Part shown: positions 38,796 to 47,419 of the stretch, piece by piece
How positions within the stretch are numbered: position 1 is the first letter of the stretch
Layout of the letters: every line of letters begins with the position of its first letter
DNA from: an uncultured Acidimicrobiaceae bacterium
GTDB lineage: Bacteria > Actinomycetota > Acidimicrobiia > Acidimicrobiales > SZUA-35
NCBI GenBank assembly: GCA_964551835.1
Contig: CAZKEM010000094.1
Location: 12,868 to 76,867 of the forward strand
Reading direction: 5' to 3'
DNA: 64,000 nucleotides
The notes under the pieces: generated by a model
Databases searched by the model: none
The model's input: only the letters and a program-made list of their open reading frames with translations
Told to the model about the DNA's origin: nothing
Program-made: the position numbers and the translations under genes

Positions 38796-38973
38796 ACCGG
38801 CAATCTTCAGCGGTCGGGAGCCTAATCGAATGGGTATCGTCGTGCAATTCAAGATCTAGATGTCTGTGGTTGAACCTATCTCTCTTAGGTTGGATCGGGA
38901 AGTTTGTATTGACGAGCCAGGGTATTTTTGCTTAAGTGTGATCAGGCACCGCAAACCGAATATTGCAACAGAG

Positions 38974-39040
38974 ATATCTGAGCAATGTTCAAACCCCACA
39001 TATCTAGCACAGTTGTATATCTTGCACGTAATATCTAGCA
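38974..39040. repeat. four copies of an ATATCT(N0-1)(A/T/G)GCA motif in an AT-rich convergent spacer
   Basis: The copies are 'atatctgagca' at 38974, 'atatctagca' at 39000, 'atatcttgca' at 39017 and 'atatctagca' at 39031. Confidence 0.5.
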
Positions 39041-39136
39041 ATAAGGTTTAGAAGTAACTTTGAAACTCACGTTCTCTCACACCAAACGCCTTCGAGGCGT
39101 TCAGGTAGAACGATGAGGCTATCAGATTTACTACTT

Positions 39137-43322: not shown

Positions 43323-46217
43323 GTGACGTTTGAGACAGTTAAGGCTCTGCGGGTTGACCCCACCGAGTTTGAAGCAGTAAGCACTGACCTGAACGATGCT
43401 CACACCTCGACCACGGCCGCCCTCGACCTAGCCGACGTCCAAATAAGCGCTTATCTCGAGGCCCAGCGGGGAGCCGACTCTAAACTAATCGTTTCGTCAG
43501 CCCGAAAGACAATCGCCGCGATACGATCAACGATTGCTGGTTACCCCGATTTGGCTGGCGCCTTCGATACAGCGTATTCAACGACGTTTGGTTTGGACAC
43601 CGACTCCAACACGTTGTGGACTGAGGTGATCAACTTCGTTGGCGAGATGACTGAGCTTGACAAAGACGGCTTTCAAGGGAGATTCGACGCTATACGGACG
43701 GCCGAAGAATCGGCGATGTCGACCCTGGCCACCGCTATCGATGAAGCCCCCACCGGCGATGACATCGAACTCGACCCAGGTGTATCTGAACTAATTACCC
43801 GTCTAGTTAAGAGCATTGATGACGCGGATACCCAGATGGACCTCGTGGTGGCCGAATCCCTGTTAAAGGACTACGAAGAAGACGGCGACTTTGATATTTC
43901 AACCGAAGAACAGATTTTGCTGGAAAAGGGAGAATTTTCAGTCGATGAAATCGAAAAGATTATGGCGGACGAGGTCGATCCTGAAGTACGACGCGCCATT
44001 TTAGCGGAAGGCACTTTTGCTGACAGGCCCGAAGACGAGATCGAAGGCATTCTGTCAGGCGATTTGGATCCAGACCTTGCGATCGACCTTGTAGAAGACC
44101 CACGCCTGAATTACCCAGACGAAGAAATAATGGACGACGTTGCTGAGGCCATGGCCGAGGGCGATCACCCAATAGTCAGAAACTCCCGTTCGGATCCCGA
44201 ACATTTCCCCCCCTGGTATGTCGAATACTTTGAAAACGAAAGAAAGATCAAAGCTCCCGGCACGACCCCTTTGGAGGCAGCCAAACTTGAAGAGGAACAA
44301 CGAGCGCTTCGAGAAGAGCACAATATCGACAGTGACGGCAAGGTCAACCAAATACATGCCACCTCAGTCACTGGTGAGCGTCTTGATGGTCACCAGTGGG
44401 AAGGCGGGAGATACAGTGAGATCTTCCAAGACGGCGAAGAGCAGGAAGCGATCGCTGAAGAAATTAATAAGAACTCGGAAACTGCCGTCGGATTCTTTAA
44501 TGGTCTAGATGCCGAAGGAACAGCGGAAATACCTACGGCCTTAGCCGAAGAGCCAGAACTGGTAGAAAAGTACAGTGAGGCTCTAGGTGATGCATCAAGG
44601 GTTAAAGGCGACAATGGTCTGAGCTTTTCTGGTGCTGAGGTTATCAACGCAGATATACCTCGAGGTCCCACAGATCTCCCCGCTGAGGTTATCTTCGTTA
44701 CGGGTGATTTCGATGACGAATTCTTGGGGAGTGCCACTGAGGCAAGTATCCGTAAGAAAGATTCGGAAGGTGGCGAACTGCTAGGCCCGTGGAGTCCAAA
44801 GAGTCAACCTCTACCAGAGGCGCTTCAAGATCGCAGTGAAGTGGCTAGGGACAATCGCATTGAGCGCGAACGCGAGGAATTAGAAGCCATATATGGCACC
44901 GACGCCACCAATATTCTGCTGGGCCGAGCGAATGAGAACCCTGAAGCTGCAAAAATAGCCTTTGACGGATTAGGGGAAGATGTCGAGATCTTGATTCATC
45001 CCGAGCATGAATTTGTGCCGGATGATTCCCCTCGTGCCGAAGGTGAGGATCCAAAGTATCCCATAACCCAGTTCTTAGGGATTGTTGGTGAAGACGAGGG
45101 TCGGGCTAAGAAGATATTCGTCGCACACGCCGAGTCAGGAGAAGGCGACACGCCGAAAGACTTCCAGAACCCTGGCGTTGCAAGCGGCTTTGGCCTCGTT
45201 ATGGGTCACCATGCTACGGTAACGTTCGACGACAAATACATCGAGCACCATGGTATCGAGATCGACGGCGATGGAAATCGAATATCACAATCAGAGTTTG
45301 CAGAGCTGGGTCTCGACGGGCACGATTGGCAACTATGGCAGGCCCAGGTCAACGAAAAAGGCGGAGGGGCAGGGTTGGTTTTCGGTACCGATCGACTGAT
45401 CCGAGAGGCCATCAGAAACGACTTGGAAGATAATGGCAAGCTAACCGAAGAGGTTGAGATCGACGGAGAGATGGTCAACCCTTATGAGACTTTCGGTTTG
45501 ACTCTGGGTGCGCTGGAACGCAATTCTACCGAAGGTGCAATCTCTTACGCTGAGAGCATTGATGATGATGCTGAGGCGCAAAACAGGCTAAATGCGGCAC
45601 TGGGTTCGACCGGTATTGTAATTCTAACTGTGGTGGCAGCTCCAATTGTGGCTCCTTTGGAGGGTGCCGCTGCCGTTGCTGCGGTTGTTGCCACTACAAC
45701 CCTTTCCGGGACCGATGTCGCGCTTTCCTACCTCGGAGCGTCCGCAACCGAAGATACGGAAAATGCTGCCAGATTATTGAAGAAGCTGGTAATTGATACC
45801 TCTTCCGGTAAGTCAGGCCCTGACCGGGTGAGCGACATAGCGGTCGAGGAATCTATTTTGATTGCTCAAACCGAGTATGAGGCTTCACTCGAGGGACTTC
45901 ATCCGCTTGACGATGTGCCTCCATATCCGGTGCGCGATGATGACGGAAATAAAGTTCGTGTCCACAATGGTGTCTTACAAACTGAGATAGCCGGTGAGTG
46001 GGTCGAAACCCGACATGCAGACCTCGATTTGAGTACGGGTGAGCCCGGTGGGAAGAACGCTACGGAGTTAGGGGACCAAGCTGAAGGTAGCCTAATTGGA
46101 GATGAACACACAAGGGGCTTCAGCCCAAGTGATCCCGGGGATCTACAGAAACAACTTGACGACGCCGGGGTGGACGTTGACGTACAGCATGGGGCGCCCA
46201 AGAAAACTGAGGAGTGA
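43323..46217 (+). CDS. 964-aa hyper-acidic protein with one hydrophobic hairpin (unknown function)
   Basis: One long uninterrupted ORF with a GTG start. It is rich in D/E ('DYEEDGDFDISTEEQ', 'EDEIEGILSGDLDPDLAIDLVEDP'). An Ala/Val-rich hydrophobic stretch 'GIVILTVVAAPIVAPLEGAAAVAAVVATTTL' lies near residues 760-800. No family recognised. Confidence 0.65.
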   Translation: MTFETVKALRVDPTEFEAVSTDLNDAHTSTTAALDLADVQISAYLEAQRGADSKLIVSSARKTIAAIRSTIAGYPDLAGAFDTAYSTTFGLDTDSNTLWTEVINFVGEMTELDKDGFQGRFDAIRTAEESAMSTLATAIDEAPTGDDIELDPGVSELITRLVKSIDDADTQMDLVVAESLLKDYEEDGDFDISTEEQILLEKGEFSVDEIEKIMADEVDPEVRRAILAEGTFADRPEDEIEGILSGDLDPDLAIDLVEDPRLNYPDEEIMDDVAEAMAEGDHPIVRNSRSDPEHFPPWYVEYFENERKIKAPGTTPLEAAKLEEEQRALREEHNIDSDGKVNQIHATSVTGERLDGHQWEGGRYSEIFQDGEEQEAIAEEINKNSETAVGFFNGLDAEGTAEIPTALAEEPELVEKYSEALGDASRVKGDNGLSFSGAEVINADIPRGPTDLPAEVIFVTGDFDDEFLGSATEASIRKKDSEGGELLGPWSPKSQPLPEALQDRSEVARDNRIEREREELEAIYGTDATNILLGRANENPEAAKIAFDGLGEDVEILIHPEHEFVPDDSPRAEGEDPKYPITQFLGIVGEDEGRAKKIFVAHAESGEGDTPKDFQNPGVASGFGLVMGHHATVTFDDKYIEHHGIEIDGDGNRISQSEFAELGLDGHDWQLWQAQVNEKGGGAGLVFGTDRLIREAIRNDLEDNGKLTEEVEIDGEMVNPYETFGLTLGALERNSTEGAISYAESIDDDAEAQNRLNAALGSTGIVILTVVAAPIVAPLEGAAAVAAVVATTTLSGTDVALSYLGASATEDTENAARLLKKLVIDTSSGKSGPDRVSDIAVEESILIAQTEYEASLEGLHPLDDVPPYPVRDDDGNKVRVHNGVLQTEIAGEWVETRHADLDLSTGEPGGKNATELGDQAEGSLIGDEHTRGFSPSDPGDLQKQLDDAGVDVDVQHGAPKKTEE

Positions 46218-47200
46218 GAATAGTGTGTAGCCGGGTGAGCCGGGTGCTAATAGGTGGGTGTTTGGTGTTGGCGGGTTGTTCGTCTGGCGGACAGGACGCC
46301 GAAGTAGTCTTTGAGTCTGAGGGCGCGGTTAACATTGTCGGCCCGGTGGTGTCCGACGGTGATTCGATTTGGTGGTTAACCGAAGTTGCCGATGACTCTA
46401 GAGCGCTTGAGGTTGTAAAAGCCGATAGTGGGACCGGCGTGATTGAGTGGAGCGAGCCTGTTGGTTTTGGCACTGTCTTTCCATTGTTTCTTGATGATGG
46501 GGTGTTGTGGGTGCAAGTCAACTCACCAGAGTCGCCAGACGAATCAGATCACGACTTGGTTAGGGTTGATGCTGAATCGGGCGAGGTTACCGGCGAAGTA
46601 CCTACAGAAAGTTACGGGGTTGCCGTAGTCGATGATCTTCTCTGGACGGTTGATGGATTCAGCGTCCTTGATCTGGTCGACCCTAGTACACCTGAACTCG
46701 TCGAATCGCTCAGTTTGTACGACGTCGAGAGCCTTGATTTCGAGCCAAGCTTTGCATCCGACGCCATTGAGTTCGATGATGCAGTGTGGGTTACTTCTCA
46801 GAACCGAGCGTTTGGGTTGAACCCCGACACCCTCGAATTGATTGACAGCGTTGAGTTCCCAGCCGGCGGATTTGGTCGACTCGAGATTCAAGACGGTGTG
46901 TTATGGGCTCAAGAAACTGACAGGTTAAAGGAATCCGACCTTCCATACAGCGCGTTGAAAATCGACACCGAAAGCGCCACGACGGAAACCTTCGACCTAT
47001 ACGAATCACCGGTTGGTACAGTCGAATACAACGGATTCACATTCGACGTCACGGGGGAGAACAAAGTCGAACAAATCGATGCGTCCGGCGAAACCGTGGC
47101 AACATACGAGAACTTAGACCCGTTCAGTTTCGTCGTGACCGACGGATACTTGTGGGCCGTCAACGAAGACCAAGTCGTCCGCTACCCAACCGCCGGCTAG
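46214..47200 (+). CDS. lipoprotein with a six-bladed beta-propeller-like repeat structure (unknown function)
   Basis: 4-nt GTGA overlap with the upstream ORF and lipobox 'LVLAGC'. Six repeats spaced ~45 aa apart contain 'DSIWW', 'DGVLWV', 'DDLLWT', 'DDAVWV', 'DGVLWA' and 'DGYLWA'. Confidence 0.65.
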   Translation: MRIVCSRVSRVLIGGCLVLAGCSSGGQDAEVVFESEGAVNIVGPVVSDGDSIWWLTEVADDSRALEVVKADSGTGVIEWSEPVGFGTVFPLFLDDGVLWVQVNSPESPDESDHDLVRVDAESGEVTGEVPTESYGVAVVDDLLWTVDGFSVLDLVDPSTPELVESLSLYDVESLDFEPSFASDAIEFDDAVWVTSQNRAFGLNPDTLELIDSVEFPAGGFGRLEIQDGVLWAQETDRLKESDLPYSALKIDTESATTETFDLYESPVGTVEYNGFTFDVTGENKVEQIDASGETVATYENLDPFSFVVTDGYLWAVNEDQVVRYPTAG

Positions 47201-47419
47201 CACCGAGCAACAAGACAGTTGCCCCTTCGAAATAGCCTCGGTGATTTTTTGTCGATGATGGAGGGATTTCAGTCAAATCGCTCGACGGTTCAGCGTGTCC
47301 TAACAAAACTACGTAGCTGACGATTGCTTGGCCCCTGTCCCCGCTTTGAAACCCTGGAACGACCCAGTCGTGTAATCGTCACGCTTGGTGGGCTGGGTTT
47401 GCCGTTATTCTTGAAACTT

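What the first reader, a model, noticed from the sequence alone, without database searches (positions are those of the whole stretch)
38796..47323. ~8.5-kb accessory block splits the conserved alr-tsaE junction
In actinobacterial chromosomes alr is normally followed directly by tsaE-tsaB-rimI-tsaD. Mycobacterium tuberculosis Rv3423c-Rv3419c is an example. Here alr (ending at 38795) and tsaE (starting ~47420) have the same orientation but are separated by three elements: a 422-bp AT-rich spacer with short repeats and a perfect palindrome, a MacB-type ABC operon on the opposite strand, and the unknown three-gene cassette. I can see no integrase, transposase, tRNA or long terminal repeat, so the acquisition mechanism is not evident.
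Basis: partly seen in the sequence, partly recalled or inferred. Interest (0 to 1): 0.55.

Follow-up and report, generated by a model that had tools for sequence, protein, structure and literature searches.

The report
Gene islet inserted between alr and tsaE
An 8.2-kb block carrying an ABC exporter operon and three genes of unknown function was inserted just upstream of tsaE in this Acidimicrobiia chromosome; this is ordinary genome plasticity, but the three genes belong to a rare uncharacterised family and the insertion sits next to a conserved non-coding element that may be a small RNA.

Summary
Between them are a 422-bp spacer, a MacB/FtsX-type ABC operon on the - strand, and three + strand genes with no Pfam, NCBIfam or PADLOC match. 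There is no tRNA, integrase, transposase or long terminal repeat.

Relatives with Alr 78% identical (two strains) and 64% identical share the flanking synteny, and in them alr is followed by tsaE after only 380-440 bp.

Three corrections:
- The 422-bp spacer is ancestral. It aligns with the empty-site spacer, is better conserved than alr itself, and ends in a hairpin with compensatory changes. It may be a small RNA or leader.
- The true insert is 39183-47394. It lies in the 38 nt between that hairpin and the tsaE start, and is flanked by an imperfect 15-bp duplication of the target (P about 0.005).
- Direct alr-tsaE adjacency is not the rule in Acidimicrobiia. The interval ranges from 40 bp to 8.1 kb.

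The block has two modules, and each has homologues at other loci in relatives. Composition is nearly native. The 964-aa protein belongs to a rare family; its model is confident and all-alpha, with no global fold match.

The parts
37698..38795 (+). alr (alanine racemase), left flanking core gene
   Evidence: Pfam Ala_racemase_N and Ala_racemase_C. It is 78% identical to the L087 protein and 64% to the L091 protein.
38840..39167 (+). Conserved non-coding element in the ancestral alr-tsaE spacer. It is a candidate small RNA or tsaE leader and is NOT part of the insert. It has a long stem at about 39050-39135 and a terminal hairpin at 39137-39167.
   Evidence: It aligns with the empty-site spacers of L087, L101 and L091. 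DNA identity to L087 is 79%, against 72% for the alignment that runs through the adjacent alr coding sequence. RNAalifold finds 83 pairs, 16 of them with compensatory changes; 8 of the 15 hairpin pairs are compensated in L091. There is no Rfam match. The covariance model R1 finds it only in these genomes.
39168..39182 (.). Left copy of the duplicated target (GCGTCTGACACTATT), diverged
   Evidence: It continues the ungapped alignment with the empty site of L087 (GTGTTTGCCGTTATT): 10 of 15 matches, extension score P = 0.005. The blastn alignments of the two junctions overlap on L087 11507-11519.
39183..39216 (.). 34 bp of unique insert DNA with a small hairpin (CCACC-AAATA-GGTGG), downstream of the permease stop codon
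   Evidence: It has no homology to the empty sites or to the L093 ABC locus. Sequence read.
39218..41779 (-). ABC permease with duplicated MacB_PCD+FtsX halves (853 aa), module 1
   Evidence: Pfam FtsX and MacB_PCD, twice each. NCBIfam ADOP, LolCE and MacB models match only below their cut-offs. The closest homologues are P0125 (73%) and P0126 (54%), both at a different locus that is conserved between them.
41811..42596 (-). ABC ATPase (261 aa) of the LolD/MacB/FtsE type, module 1
   Evidence: Pfam ABC_tran E 2e-34. NCBIfam LolD, DarD and FtsE-like models match below their cut-offs. It is 85% identical to the L093 protein.
42659..43013 (.). Divergent promoter region between the two modules; unique DNA. 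The 82-aa ORF at 42593-42841 (-) is probably spurious.
   Evidence: Homology to L093 ends at 42658. A promoter-like site lies at 42939-42967 (+), followed by TACTATAAT. orf82 has no homologue in L093 or L095 and no family match.
43029..43298 (+). Small acidic protein (89-94 aa), first gene of the three-gene cassette (module 2)
   Evidence: It is conserved immediately upstream of the large gene in L084 and L085, with 45% and 35% identity. L103 has a 98-aa gene in the same position, but no sequence homology to it was detected by tblastn. No family match.
43323..46217 (+). 964-aa acidic (pI 4.2), almost all-alpha protein with one hydrophobic stretch (residues 756-791)
   Evidence: Only 2 homologues turn up in the word-indexed search. 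The profile search finds 62 representatives in 1.84 billion proteins. No Pfam domain occurs in 41 members. The AF2 model has pLDDT 85.9 and pTM 0.73. There is no global fold match in PDB or BFVD; the N-terminus gives local PPE-like matches.
46214..47200 (+). 328-aa predicted lipoprotein (LAGCSS lipobox), probably a beta-propeller
   Evidence: The lipobox and repeated D-x-x-LW-V motifs are visible. Homologues follow the large gene in L084 (57%), L103 (35%) and L085 (27%; there it hits WD40 families). Sub-threshold PQQ_2/BamB matches occur in the relatives.
47201..47394 (.). 194 bp of unique insert DNA between the cassette and the right junction
   Evidence: No homology to L084, L087 or L091.
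47395..47409 (.). Right copy of the duplicated target (GGGTTTGCCGTTATT), 11 nt upstream of the tsaE GTG
   Evidence: It matches L087 at 14 of 15 positions, and homology then runs on into tsaE.
47420..47923 (+). tsaE, right flanking core gene
   Evidence: Pfam TsaE; NCBIfam TIGR00150 above its cut-off.
47920..48582 (+). tsaB
   Evidence: NCBIfam TIGR03725 above its cut-off.

Best explanation
Window 39183-47394 is a lineage-specific insertion of 8.2 kb. It landed in the 38-nt gap between the terminal hairpin of a conserved non-coding element downstream of alr and the start of tsaE. Neither neighbour was damaged.

The insert is a composite of two self-contained modules that diverge from a 355-bp promoter region.
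- Module 1 is a MacB/FtsX-superfamily (type VII) ABC exporter: an ATPase plus a duplicated permease.
- Module 2 is a three-gene cassette: a small acidic protein, a 964-aa all-alpha acidic protein with one hydrophobic segment, and a lipoprotein that is probably a beta-propeller. These most likely form a cell-envelope or secreted complex.

What is shown:
- the site is empty in the three closest relatives;
- the junctions are placed to within a few bases;
- each module has homologues at other loci in related genomes.

What is inferred:
- The DNA entered by a recombination event that duplicated about 15 bp of target. This could be att-like site-specific integration by an integrase acting in trans or since lost, or staggered-break or microhomology joining.
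- The event is old. The two repeat copies are only 10/15 identical and composition is nearly native.
- The ABC operon came laterally from a related Acidimicrobiia lineage rather than by vertical descent.
- tsaE-tsaB are now cut off from their former upstream region. They are probably transcribed by read-through from the co-oriented cassette or from the new 194-bp spacer.
For: Empty sites:
- L087, L101 and L091/L092 have identical flanking synteny, with alr and tsaE 437, 438 and 382 bp apart.
- blastn homology to L087 stops at 39182 and resumes at 47397. The two alignments overlap on 13 nt of L087.
- The ungapped left junction matches the empty site at 10 of 15 positions, and the right junction at 10 of 15 positions (P about 0.005 each).
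- More distant relatives carry unrelated genes in the interval.

Two modules:
- DNA homology to the ABC locus of L093 spans exactly 39217-42658.
- L093 and L095 share a different conserved context: an N6_N4 methylase upstream, then ATPase-permease, then a 178-aa gene and a further downstream gene (231 aa, cut at the contig end, in L093; 307 aa in L095).
- The cassette trio recurs without any ABC operon in L084, L085 and L103. Those are variable regions, next to DUF222-HNH genes (L084, L103) and, in L103, a PT-HINT gene.

Lateral origin of the ABC operon:
- All five core genes compared across the three loci give ((window, L087), L091). The ABC genes give ((window, L093), L095).
- L093 co-occurs in samples with L091, and L095 with L087.

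Age of the event:
- Tetranucleotide distance of the block lies within the window's range.
- GC3 of the ABC genes is typical. GC3 of the small and large cassette genes is slightly low: 0.49 and 0.52 against 0.585 +/- 0.026.

Assembly: independent assemblies cover both junctions.
Against: - No integrase, transposase, tRNA or terminal inverted repeat is present, so the recombination mechanism is not demonstrated.
- The 15-bp duplication is imperfect. Its length was chosen after looking, and P about 0.005 is suggestive rather than conclusive.
- Assigning L093 and L095 to the genomes of L091 and L087 rests only on co-occurrence in samples. The tree conflict could instead reflect paralogy or unsampled species.
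- It cannot be decided whether one or two insertion events built the block.
- The function of the cassette is inferred only from predicted features. The PPE-like fold match is local and weak (TM 0.44 normalised to the target, rmsd 7.4 A).
- The closest relative is still only 78% identical in Alr, so the insertion cannot be dated finely.
Confidence: 0.85

Rival explanations
1. The block is ancestral, and the relatives lost it by deletion.
For: Composition of the block is close to native. The alr-tsaE interval clearly both gains and loses genes across Acidimicrobiia.
Against: This needs at least two independent deletions, one in the L087/L101 lineage and one in the L091 lineage. Each would have to restore the same junction (hairpin, about 38 nt, tsaE start) to the base. 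The window carries both copies of a 15-bp target duplication, whereas the relatives carry one. Outgroups hold unrelated genes in the interval (hydrolase, S58, UDG, GT4, TrkHA) and never the ABC operon or the cassette. The ABC operon sits at a different conserved locus in relatives.
Confidence: 0.04
2. The block is a metagenome misassembly: a chimeric join of contigs from different organisms.
For: The source is metagenomic. Two ENA contigs end at window position about 47346, roughly 50 bp before the right junction. A related organism with a similar ABC operon is present in the same sample.
Against: Two ENA assemblies independently join alr, the spacer, the ABC operon and the cassette. A Logan assembly of another run joins the cassette to tsaE, tsaB, ydjM and DUF3179, with a 4-kb identical overlap. 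The window's own contig spans everything. The ABC operon in the window is only 72% identical in DNA to the co-occurring L093 copy, so it is not that organism's DNA.
Confidence: 0.03
3. The block reflects intragenomic relocation rather than lateral acquisition. On this view the ABC operon, and possibly the cassette, moved or were duplicated from another locus of the same genome into the alr-tsaE gap.
For: The ABC operon has orthologue-like copies at one conserved locus in two relatives. Codon usage and GC3 of the ABC genes are fully native. The cassette family is multi-copy within one genome: L085 and L103 lie on one 321-kb contig. A 54-57% identical trio (L084) occurs in the same sample as the window.
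Against: The ABC proteins are closer to the L093 type (74-85%) than to the L095 type (55-79%). That is opposite to the core-gene relationships if L095 belongs to the L087-like genome. The rest of the window genome is not available, so it is unknown whether the usual ABC locus is vacant or occupied.
Confidence: 0.25
4. The ABC operon and the cassette form one functional unit, with the exporter handling the cassette proteins, and arrived together.
For: They are adjacent and diverge from a shared 355-bp region, and both encode envelope-directed products.
Against: The trio occurs three more times (L084, L085, L103) with no ABC operon beside it. The ABC operon occurs twice (L093, L095) with no trio. 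L085 and L103 instead share a different accessory pair of 218-224 and 308-309 aa.
Confidence: 0.12

Closest known systems
Genomic islets or islands inserted at conserved intergenic sites, including islands that integrate at the 3' end of tRNA, tmRNA or small-RNA genes through tyrosine integrases (general knowledge, not tested against a database)
   Same: The block is strain- or lineage-specific cargo between conserved core genes, with an empty site in relatives. A short direct duplication of the target flanks the insert. The position is immediately 3' of a structured, conserved non-coding element. The cargo is envelope and transport genes.
   Different: There is no integrase, excisionase or transposase. 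The repeat is imperfect (10/15). There is no clear compositional deviation. The adjacent element is not a known RNA gene (no Rfam match). The cargo is only five genes.
The alr-tsaE-tsaB-rimI-tsaD-groES-groEL1 operon of Mycobacterium tuberculosis (PMC5335608)
   Same: alr, tsaE and tsaB have the same order and strand.
   Different: Even the empty-site relatives here have a 380-440 bp structured spacer with a strong hairpin between alr and tsaE. tsaB is followed by ydjM on the opposite strand and by DUF3179, not by rimI-tsaD-groES. The window also has 8.2 kb of foreign genes in the gap, one operon of which converges on alr.
Type VII ABC transporters (MacB, LolCDE, FtsEX, YbbP/ADOP-type duplicated permeases)
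   Same: The ATPase has a LolD/MacB/FtsE-like signature. The permease is made of two MacB_PCD+FtsX halves.
   Different: All specific NCBIfam models score far below their cut-offs: ADOP 97 against 622 bits, LolCE 91 against 362, MacB 57 against 966. No adaptor or outer-membrane partner gene is adjacent. The substrate is unknown.
PE/PPE and WXG100-type substrate pairs of type VII secretion
   Same: A gene of about 90-100 aa lies directly upstream of a large protein. The N-terminal helical bundle of about 140 residues in that large protein gives local Foldseek matches to PPE15 and PPE41 (prob 0.57-0.99). A weak, in-register profile match to EsxA is also seen (E 0.22). The family is rare and has paralogous copies at other loci in a related genome.
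   Different: There are no Pfam PE, PPE or WXG100 hits. No WxG or YxxxD/E motifs were seen when the aligned sequences were read by eye; the conserved motifs are ALRxDPxxF and GPD instead. No T7SS machinery genes are in the window. The rest of the 964-aa protein has no counterpart. A conserved lipoprotein gene follows.

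Membership tests
Integrase-type genomic island | Absent from the same site in close relatives (empty site) | tested here: met
   L087, L101 and L091/L092 have alr, then a 380-440 bp spacer, then tsaE, with identical flanks.
Integrase-type genomic island | Integrase or recombinase gene inside the element | tested here: not met
   Every ORF of the block was scanned. Only ABC_tran, FtsX and MacB_PCD domains were found; the rest have no domain.
Integrase-type genomic island | Flanking direct repeats (attL/attR) derived from the target | tested here: inconclusive
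   The 15-bp copies at 39168-39182 and 47395-47409 are 10/15 identical to each other. The left copy matches the single sequence in L087 at 10 of 15 positions and the right copy at 14 of 15. P is about 0.005.
Integrase-type genomic island | Insertion at the 3' end of a tRNA, tmRNA or small-RNA gene | tested here: inconclusive
   There is no tRNA or tmRNA. The insert abuts the terminal hairpin of a conserved structured element, which has covariation support from only three distinct sequences and no Rfam match.
Integrase-type genomic island | Composition deviating from the host | tested here: not met
   Tetranucleotide z-scores run from -1.5 to +1.7, within the window's range. Only the small and large cassette genes have slightly low GC3.
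Transposon or IS composite | Transposase gene and terminal inverted repeats | tested here: not met
   There are no transposase domains and no terminal inverted repeats at the junctions.
Type VII ABC transporter (MacB/FtsX superfamily) | ABC ATPase plus a permease with an FtsX transmembrane domain and a MacB-like periplasmic core domain | tested here: met
   ABC_tran E 2e-34, FtsX E 1e-29, MacB_PCD E 4e-18, with two copies each in the permease.
LolCDE / MacB / FtsEX / ADOP equivalogs | Score above the curated NCBIfam cut-off | tested here: not met
   All scores are far below the cut-offs.
PE/PPE or WXG100 type VII secretion substrates | Match to the PE, PPE or WXG100 sequence families | tested here: not met
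   No Pfam hit appears even at E up to 10 for the window proteins or at 0.01 for 41 family members. The profile match to EsxA has E 0.22.
PE/PPE or WXG100 type VII secretion substrates | Helical-bundle fold of the N-terminal domain | tested here: inconclusive
   Local Foldseek matches to 5xfs_B, 6vj5_B, 2g38_B and 4w4k_B have prob 0.77-0.99, but TM is 0.35-0.44 and rmsd 7-9 A.
PE/PPE or WXG100 type VII secretion substrates | WxG turn motif and YxxxD/E secretion motif; T7SS core genes (EccC etc.) nearby | tested here: not met
   Neither motif was seen when the alignments were read by eye; no motif search was run. The 19 window ORFs outside the cassette that were scanned, including all of 180 aa or more from 25.3 kb to the end, show no T7SS families; ORFs in the first 25 kb were not scanned. 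The rest of the genome was not available.
Actinobacterial alr-tsaE-tsaB-rimI-tsaD operon | alr, tsaE, tsaB, rimI and tsaD contiguous and co-oriented | tested here: not met
   alr, tsaE and tsaB are co-oriented, but alr and tsaE are 8.6 kb apart. tsaB is followed by ydjM (-) and DUF3179, and no rimI or tsaD is found downstream.

The most novel reading that the evidence does not exclude
The three-gene cassette could be a previously unrecognised envelope or secretion module of Acidimicrobiia. On this reading a small partner and a PPE-like N-terminal bundle target a large all-alpha effector, which is paired with a beta-propeller lipoprotein. The cassette exists as several divergent paralogous copies that move between variable loci. 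Here it would have entered, together with an ABC exporter, at an att-like 15-bp site at the 3' end of a novel conserved small-RNA gene, without an integrase of its own. That would mean mobilisation in trans at a small-RNA attachment site.
Probability: 0.12. Interest if true: 0.65.

Novelty: new member of a known kind. Interest (0 to 1): 0.38.

Why it matters
As a structural finding this is ordinary. It is a small, old, mobility-gene-free islet in a gene interval that turns out to be plastic across Acidimicrobiia. Its value is mainly as a clean, base-resolved example of insertion next to essential genes (tsaE-tsaB) without disrupting them.

Two by-products deserve more attention than the insertion itself.
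- A roughly 330-nt non-coding element between alr and tsaE is more conserved than the neighbouring coding DNA. It has a covarying terminal hairpin, has no Rfam family, and has stayed intact in the window although it is now 8.2 kb away from tsaE. That argues for a function of its own.
- The large cassette protein belongs to a rare family (about 60 clusters in 1.84 billion representative proteins) of roughly 700-1,000-residue proteins. The model is confident and all-alpha, there is no global structural relative in PDB, and the partner genes are conserved. This is a compact target for experimental work on the envelope biology of uncultured Acidimicrobiia.

Tried and rejected
Searches that found nothing:
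- Rfam E-value scan of 34-52 kb: nothing in the spacer.
- The sigma-70/terminator consensus scan does not call the spacer's TTGACG-N17-TTAAGT site or its hairpin, so a promoter for the element remains conjecture.
- JGI metagenome scans with a 23-nt core of the element and with the large-protein alignment: no relatives.
- IMG/VR, plasmid and phage searches with the large protein: none. There is therefore no evidence of carriage on a known mobile replicon.
- Pfam (E up to 10), NCBIfam and PADLOC for the three cassette proteins and orf82: no meaningful match.
- A PDB sequence search with family profiles gave only chance-level coiled-coil hits.
- An att-like motif search around the homologous modules in L084, L085, L093 and L095 found nothing.

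Methods that failed or were unavailable:
- AF2 with a 3-sequence alignment gave pLDDT 41 and was discarded. The 41-sequence alignment was used instead.

Ideas considered and rejected:
- A small ORF in the spacer, starting at ATG 38861. I read the codons by eye. Substitutions between the window and L087 fall mostly on first and second codon positions, and the reading frames end at different points, so the conservation is not protein-coding.

Limitations:
The close relatives came from the protein search plus contig look-ups.
- Antisense ORFs in the high-GC relatives first masked the true gap genes. This was corrected with Pfam and tblastn.

Full report
WHAT IS THERE

The window is a core chromosomal stretch of an uncultured Acidimicrobiia-type actinobacterium. 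It carries glmM, a long glmS-like gene, acpS, abcF, alr, tsaE, tsaB, nitrite reductase and a DMSO-type reductase. The best Alr matches among species-representative genomes are Acidimicrobiales and Microthrixaceae MAGs at 50-53%.

alr is 37698-38795 (+). tsaE lies in ORF 47324-47923 (+). Gene callers start it at 47420, and an ATG at 47436 matches the start called in L087. tsaB is 47920-48582 (+).

Between alr and tsaE lie:
- a 422-bp spacer (GC 0.45) with a perfect 15+15 palindrome at 39137-39167;
- a - strand operon of an ABC ATPase (41811-42596) and an 853-aa permease with two MacB_PCD+FtsX halves (39218-41779);
- three + strand genes (43029-43298, 43323-46217, 46214-47200) with no match in Pfam, NCBIfam or PADLOC.

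There is no tRNA or tmRNA in the whole window, no recombinase domain, and no terminal repeat of 12 nt or more at the edges.

IS IT AN INSERTION?

The large protein search with Alr found relatives at 78% (P0005) and 64% (P0006) identity. Everything else was at or below 59%. Their contigs share the window's flanks on both sides: glmS-acpS...abcF-alr, and tsaE-tsaB-ydjM-DUF3179-DUF1501/DUF4214-DUF1800-aminotransferase. In them alr is followed by tsaE after 437 bp (L087), 438 bp (L101, a second strain from another sample) and 382 bp (L091/L092).

The five core genes compared across the three loci (abcF, a 197-aa hypothetical gene, alr, tsaE, tsaB) consistently give ((window, L087), L091). Two successive outgroups thus have the empty site, so the block was gained in the window's lineage.

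The alternative is two independent deletions that restore the same junction to the base. That is much less parsimonious. It is also contradicted by the target duplication described below.

Chimeric assembly is unlikely. Two ENA assemblies join alr, the spacer, the ABC operon and the cassette. An independent Logan assembly joins the cassette to tsaE-tsaB-ydjM-DUF3179. All are 99-100% identical to the window.

WHERE EXACTLY?

It aligns along almost its whole length with the empty-site spacers. Identity to L087 is 79%, compared with 72% for the blastn alignment that runs through the adjacent alr coding sequence.

blastn homology to L087 ends at window 39182 and resumes at 47397. The two alignments overlap on 13 nt of L087. 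Read without gaps:
- the left junction continues from the hairpin as GCGTCTGACACTATT (39168-39182);
- the right junction begins GGGTTTGCCGTTATT (47395-47409);
- L087 has one copy, GTGTTTGCCGTTATT.

Left against L087 is 10/15, left against right is 10/15, and right against L087 is 14/15. An extension score this high occurs in 0.5% of random window 40-mers.

The insert proper is therefore 39183-47394 (8,212 bp). It is flanked by an imperfect 15-bp duplication of the target. It sits in the 38 nt that separate the hairpin from the tsaE start in the empty sites. The right copy lies in the tsaE ribosome-binding region and is conserved. The left copy is free to drift, and its five mismatches argue that the event is old.

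COMPOSITION

Four-kb tetranucleotide distances across the block range from z = -1.5 (ABC operon) to +1.7 (cassette). Other parts of the window reach +2.1.

GC3 of the ABC genes (0.595, 0.626) and of the lipoprotein gene (0.578) is typical of the window (0.585 +/- 0.026). The small and large cassette genes have the lowest GC3 of the 37 genes scored (0.489, 0.516). Synonymous codon usage distances of the block genes fall within the range of the other genes; only the short 89-aa gene is high, 0.435 against a window mean of 0.277 +/- 0.059.

The block is therefore either old and ameliorated or derived from a compositionally similar donor. Both are consistent with what follows.

TWO MODULES, EACH WITH RELATIVES ELSEWHERE

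DNA homology to the ABC locus of L093 covers exactly 39217-42658, from the permease stop codon to 62 bp upstream of the ATPase start. L093 and L095 carry the closest homologues. The permease is 74% (L093) and 55% (L095) identical, and the ATPase 85% and 79%.

L093 and L095 are syntenic with each other at a different locus: an N6_N4 methylase upstream, then ATPase-permease, then a 178-183-aa gene and a further downstream gene, 231 aa (cut at the contig end) in L093 and 307 aa in L095.

L093 occurs in the same samples as L091. L095 occurs in the same samples as L087. If these pairings reflect genomes, the ABC tree ((window, L093), L095) conflicts with the core tree. The window's ABC proteins are also more similar to L093 than any of the five compared core proteins is to L091. 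That points to lateral transfer from an L091-like lineage. This step is inference.

The cassette has only two homologues of the large protein in the word-indexed search of 5.8 billion proteins (54% and 33%). In both, the small gene precedes the large one and a lipoprotein or propeller gene follows, but in unrelated contexts:
- L084 lies between a DUF222-HNH gene and DUF4956/VTC genes.
- L085 lies near purA and clpB.
- A fourth trio, L103, lies 100 kb from L085 on the same 321-kb contig, near a PT-HINT polymorphic-toxin gene and another DUF222-HNH gene.

L085 and L103 share two further unknown genes (218-224 and 308-309 aa) that the window lacks. None of these cassette loci has an adjacent ABC operon, and neither ABC locus has a trio. 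The block is therefore a composite of two independent modules. Whether they arrived together or in two steps cannot be told. The 355 bp between them and the 34-bp and 194-bp end segments have no homologue anywhere in the data.

WHAT THE CARGO IS LIKELY TO DO

Module 1 is a type VII (MacB/LolCDE/FtsEX-superfamily) ABC system with a duplicated permease. It scores far below the cut-off of every specific NCBIfam model, so its substrate is open. Export or extraction of an envelope component or an antimicrobial compound is the family-level expectation (general knowledge).

Module 2:
- The 964-aa protein is very acidic (pI 4.2) and has no signal peptide. Its single hydrophobic stretch covers residues 756-791.
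- A profile search of 1.84 billion representative proteins finds 62 relatives, mostly about 700-1,000 residues long plus some short, probably fragmentary ones. None of the 41 scanned has a Pfam domain.
- With that alignment AlphaFold gives a confident model (pLDDT 85.9, pTM 0.73). It is almost entirely helical, apart from a small beta-sheet near the C-terminus and the low-confidence hydrophobic segment.
- Foldseek finds no global relative in PDB or BFVD (best E 0.05 and 0.02). About 170 columns give local matches to the PPE partners of mycobacterial PE/PPE pairs (prob up to 0.99, TM 0.44).
- An N-terminal profile aligns in register with EsxA at E 0.22.
- The family motifs are ALRxDPxxF and GPD. 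I saw no WxG or YxxxD/E motif when reading the alignments by eye.
- No T7SS genes are in the window.
- The third gene encodes a lipoprotein (LAGCSS) with repeated blade-like motifs. Its relatives give sub-threshold BamB/PQQ matches, and the L085 counterpart hits WD40 families.

My best functional guess, at about 25-30%, is an envelope-associated or secreted complex. In it the small protein pairs with the N-terminal bundle of the large one. Membership in PE/PPE or WXG100 families was tested and is not met.

THE ANCESTRAL SPACER

The element at about 38840-39167 is the most conserved DNA of the neighbourhood. RNAalifold on the three distinct versions predicts 83 pairs, 16 with compensatory changes. 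These include a long stem (about 39050-39135) and the terminal hairpin, in which 8 of 15 pairs are compensated in L091 and one more between the window and L087. Tails after the hairpin are T-rich on the + strand in L091 and L087.

There is no Rfam match. A covariance model finds the element only in these genomes among the 35 sources searched (the window and 34 fetched loci).

Its survival in the window, now 8.2 kb from tsaE, argues that it works on its own, as a small RNA or an alr 3' element, rather than only as a tsaE leader. Three sequences are too few to prove that.

WIDER CONTEXT

In M. tuberculosis alr-tsaE-tsaB-rimI-tsaD-groES-groEL1 is one operon (PMC5335608). In the Acidimicrobiia loci fetched here, alr and tsaE stay co-oriented but the interval is plastic.
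- The gap is about 40-150 bp in L006, L015, L019, L022 and L025 (and likewise in the actinomycete Agromyces, L062).
- It is 0.7-4.8 kb in about fifteen others, with alpha/beta-hydrolase, peptidase S58 and UDG in various combinations and a P450 in two.
- It is 4.4 kb in L099 (GT4, an unknown gene, S58, PALP).
- It is 8.1 kb in L097 (hydrolase, GT4, S58, a CDP-alcohol transferase, TrkH, TrkA, peptidase M24, PALP).

The window's clade has none of these genes and has the structured spacer instead. The premise of a fixed junction is thus only partly right. The window shows one more turnover event in a turnover-prone interval.

VERDICT

This is a real, well-delimited and rather old insertion of two independent accessory modules. 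It has a possible att-like or target-site duplication and no surviving mobility gene. That makes it a new member of a known kind, of modest interest. The uncharacterised cassette family and the candidate RNA element are the parts worth following up.

Noticed in passing
window 38840-39167 (+); also L087 11185-11503, L101 (same), L091 8300-8625: A non-coding element of about 330 nt between alr and tsaE is better conserved than the adjacent coding DNA. It has a long stem and a terminal hairpin with compensatory changes, and a conserved TTGACG-N17-TTAAGT-like site upstream (38912-38940). It has no Rfam family. It is a candidate new small RNA or leader restricted to this Acidimicrobiia clade.
   Followed up: partly
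window 43323-46217; L084, L085, L103, L102: The 964-aa protein belongs to a rare, unnamed family: 62 representatives in 1.84 billion proteins. It has a confident all-alpha AlphaFold model and no global PDB or BFVD fold match. At least two divergent copies, each with its own trio, lie on one 321-kb contig (L085 and L103). Copies tend to sit near DUF222-HNH genes (L084, L103) and, in L103, a PT-HINT gene.
   Followed up: partly
window about 47346 (end of ENA contigs k141_905295 and scaffold_39): Two independent ENA assemblies of the window organism break about 50 bp before the right junction of the insert. This might reflect population heterogeneity at this site. It was not testable without reads.
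   Followed up: no
window 48575-50871 and L087 12684-14983: In this clade tsaB is not followed by rimI-tsaD-groES as in mycobacteria and in L097/L099. Instead it is followed by a YdjM-family membrane protein on the opposite strand and a DUF3179 protein. rimI and tsaD are not within the 16 kb downstream.
   Followed up: partly
window 30085-33522 (+): The glmS-like gene encodes 1,145 aa, about twice the usual length. Only a weak GATase_6 match and one SIS domain are recognised. The same long form occurs in L087, L097 and L099, so it is a feature of the lineage and not an error.
   Followed up: no
window 33523-35784, compared with L087 2569-7500 and L091/L092: The stretch between acpS and abcF is a second variable spot. 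L087 and L101 carry DUF4349 and an ECF sigma factor with a 389-aa partner. L091/L092 carry PhzF (L092 also DUF4349). The window has only a 195-aa (-) and a 197-aa (+) gene. A serine/threonine/proline-rich 201-aa ORF overlaps the 195-aa gene on the other strand.
   Followed up: no
L005, L007-L013, L016-L018, L020, L023, L027, L029, L076, L097, L099 (alr-tsaE interval): Many Acidimicrobiia, and one Nitriliruptoraceae MAG, keep a co-oriented set of alpha/beta-hydrolase, peptidase S58 (DmpA-like) and UDG-superfamily genes between alr and tsaE. This may be an older operon arrangement that was lost in the window's clade.
   Followed up: partly
L085 7551-9130 and L103 8105-9663: Two further unknown genes (218-224 aa and 308-309 aa, 40-47% identical between the two loci) accompany the trio in L085 (divergent orientation) and L103 (co-oriented). 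They are absent from the window and from L084. They may be optional components of the same system.
   Followed up: partly
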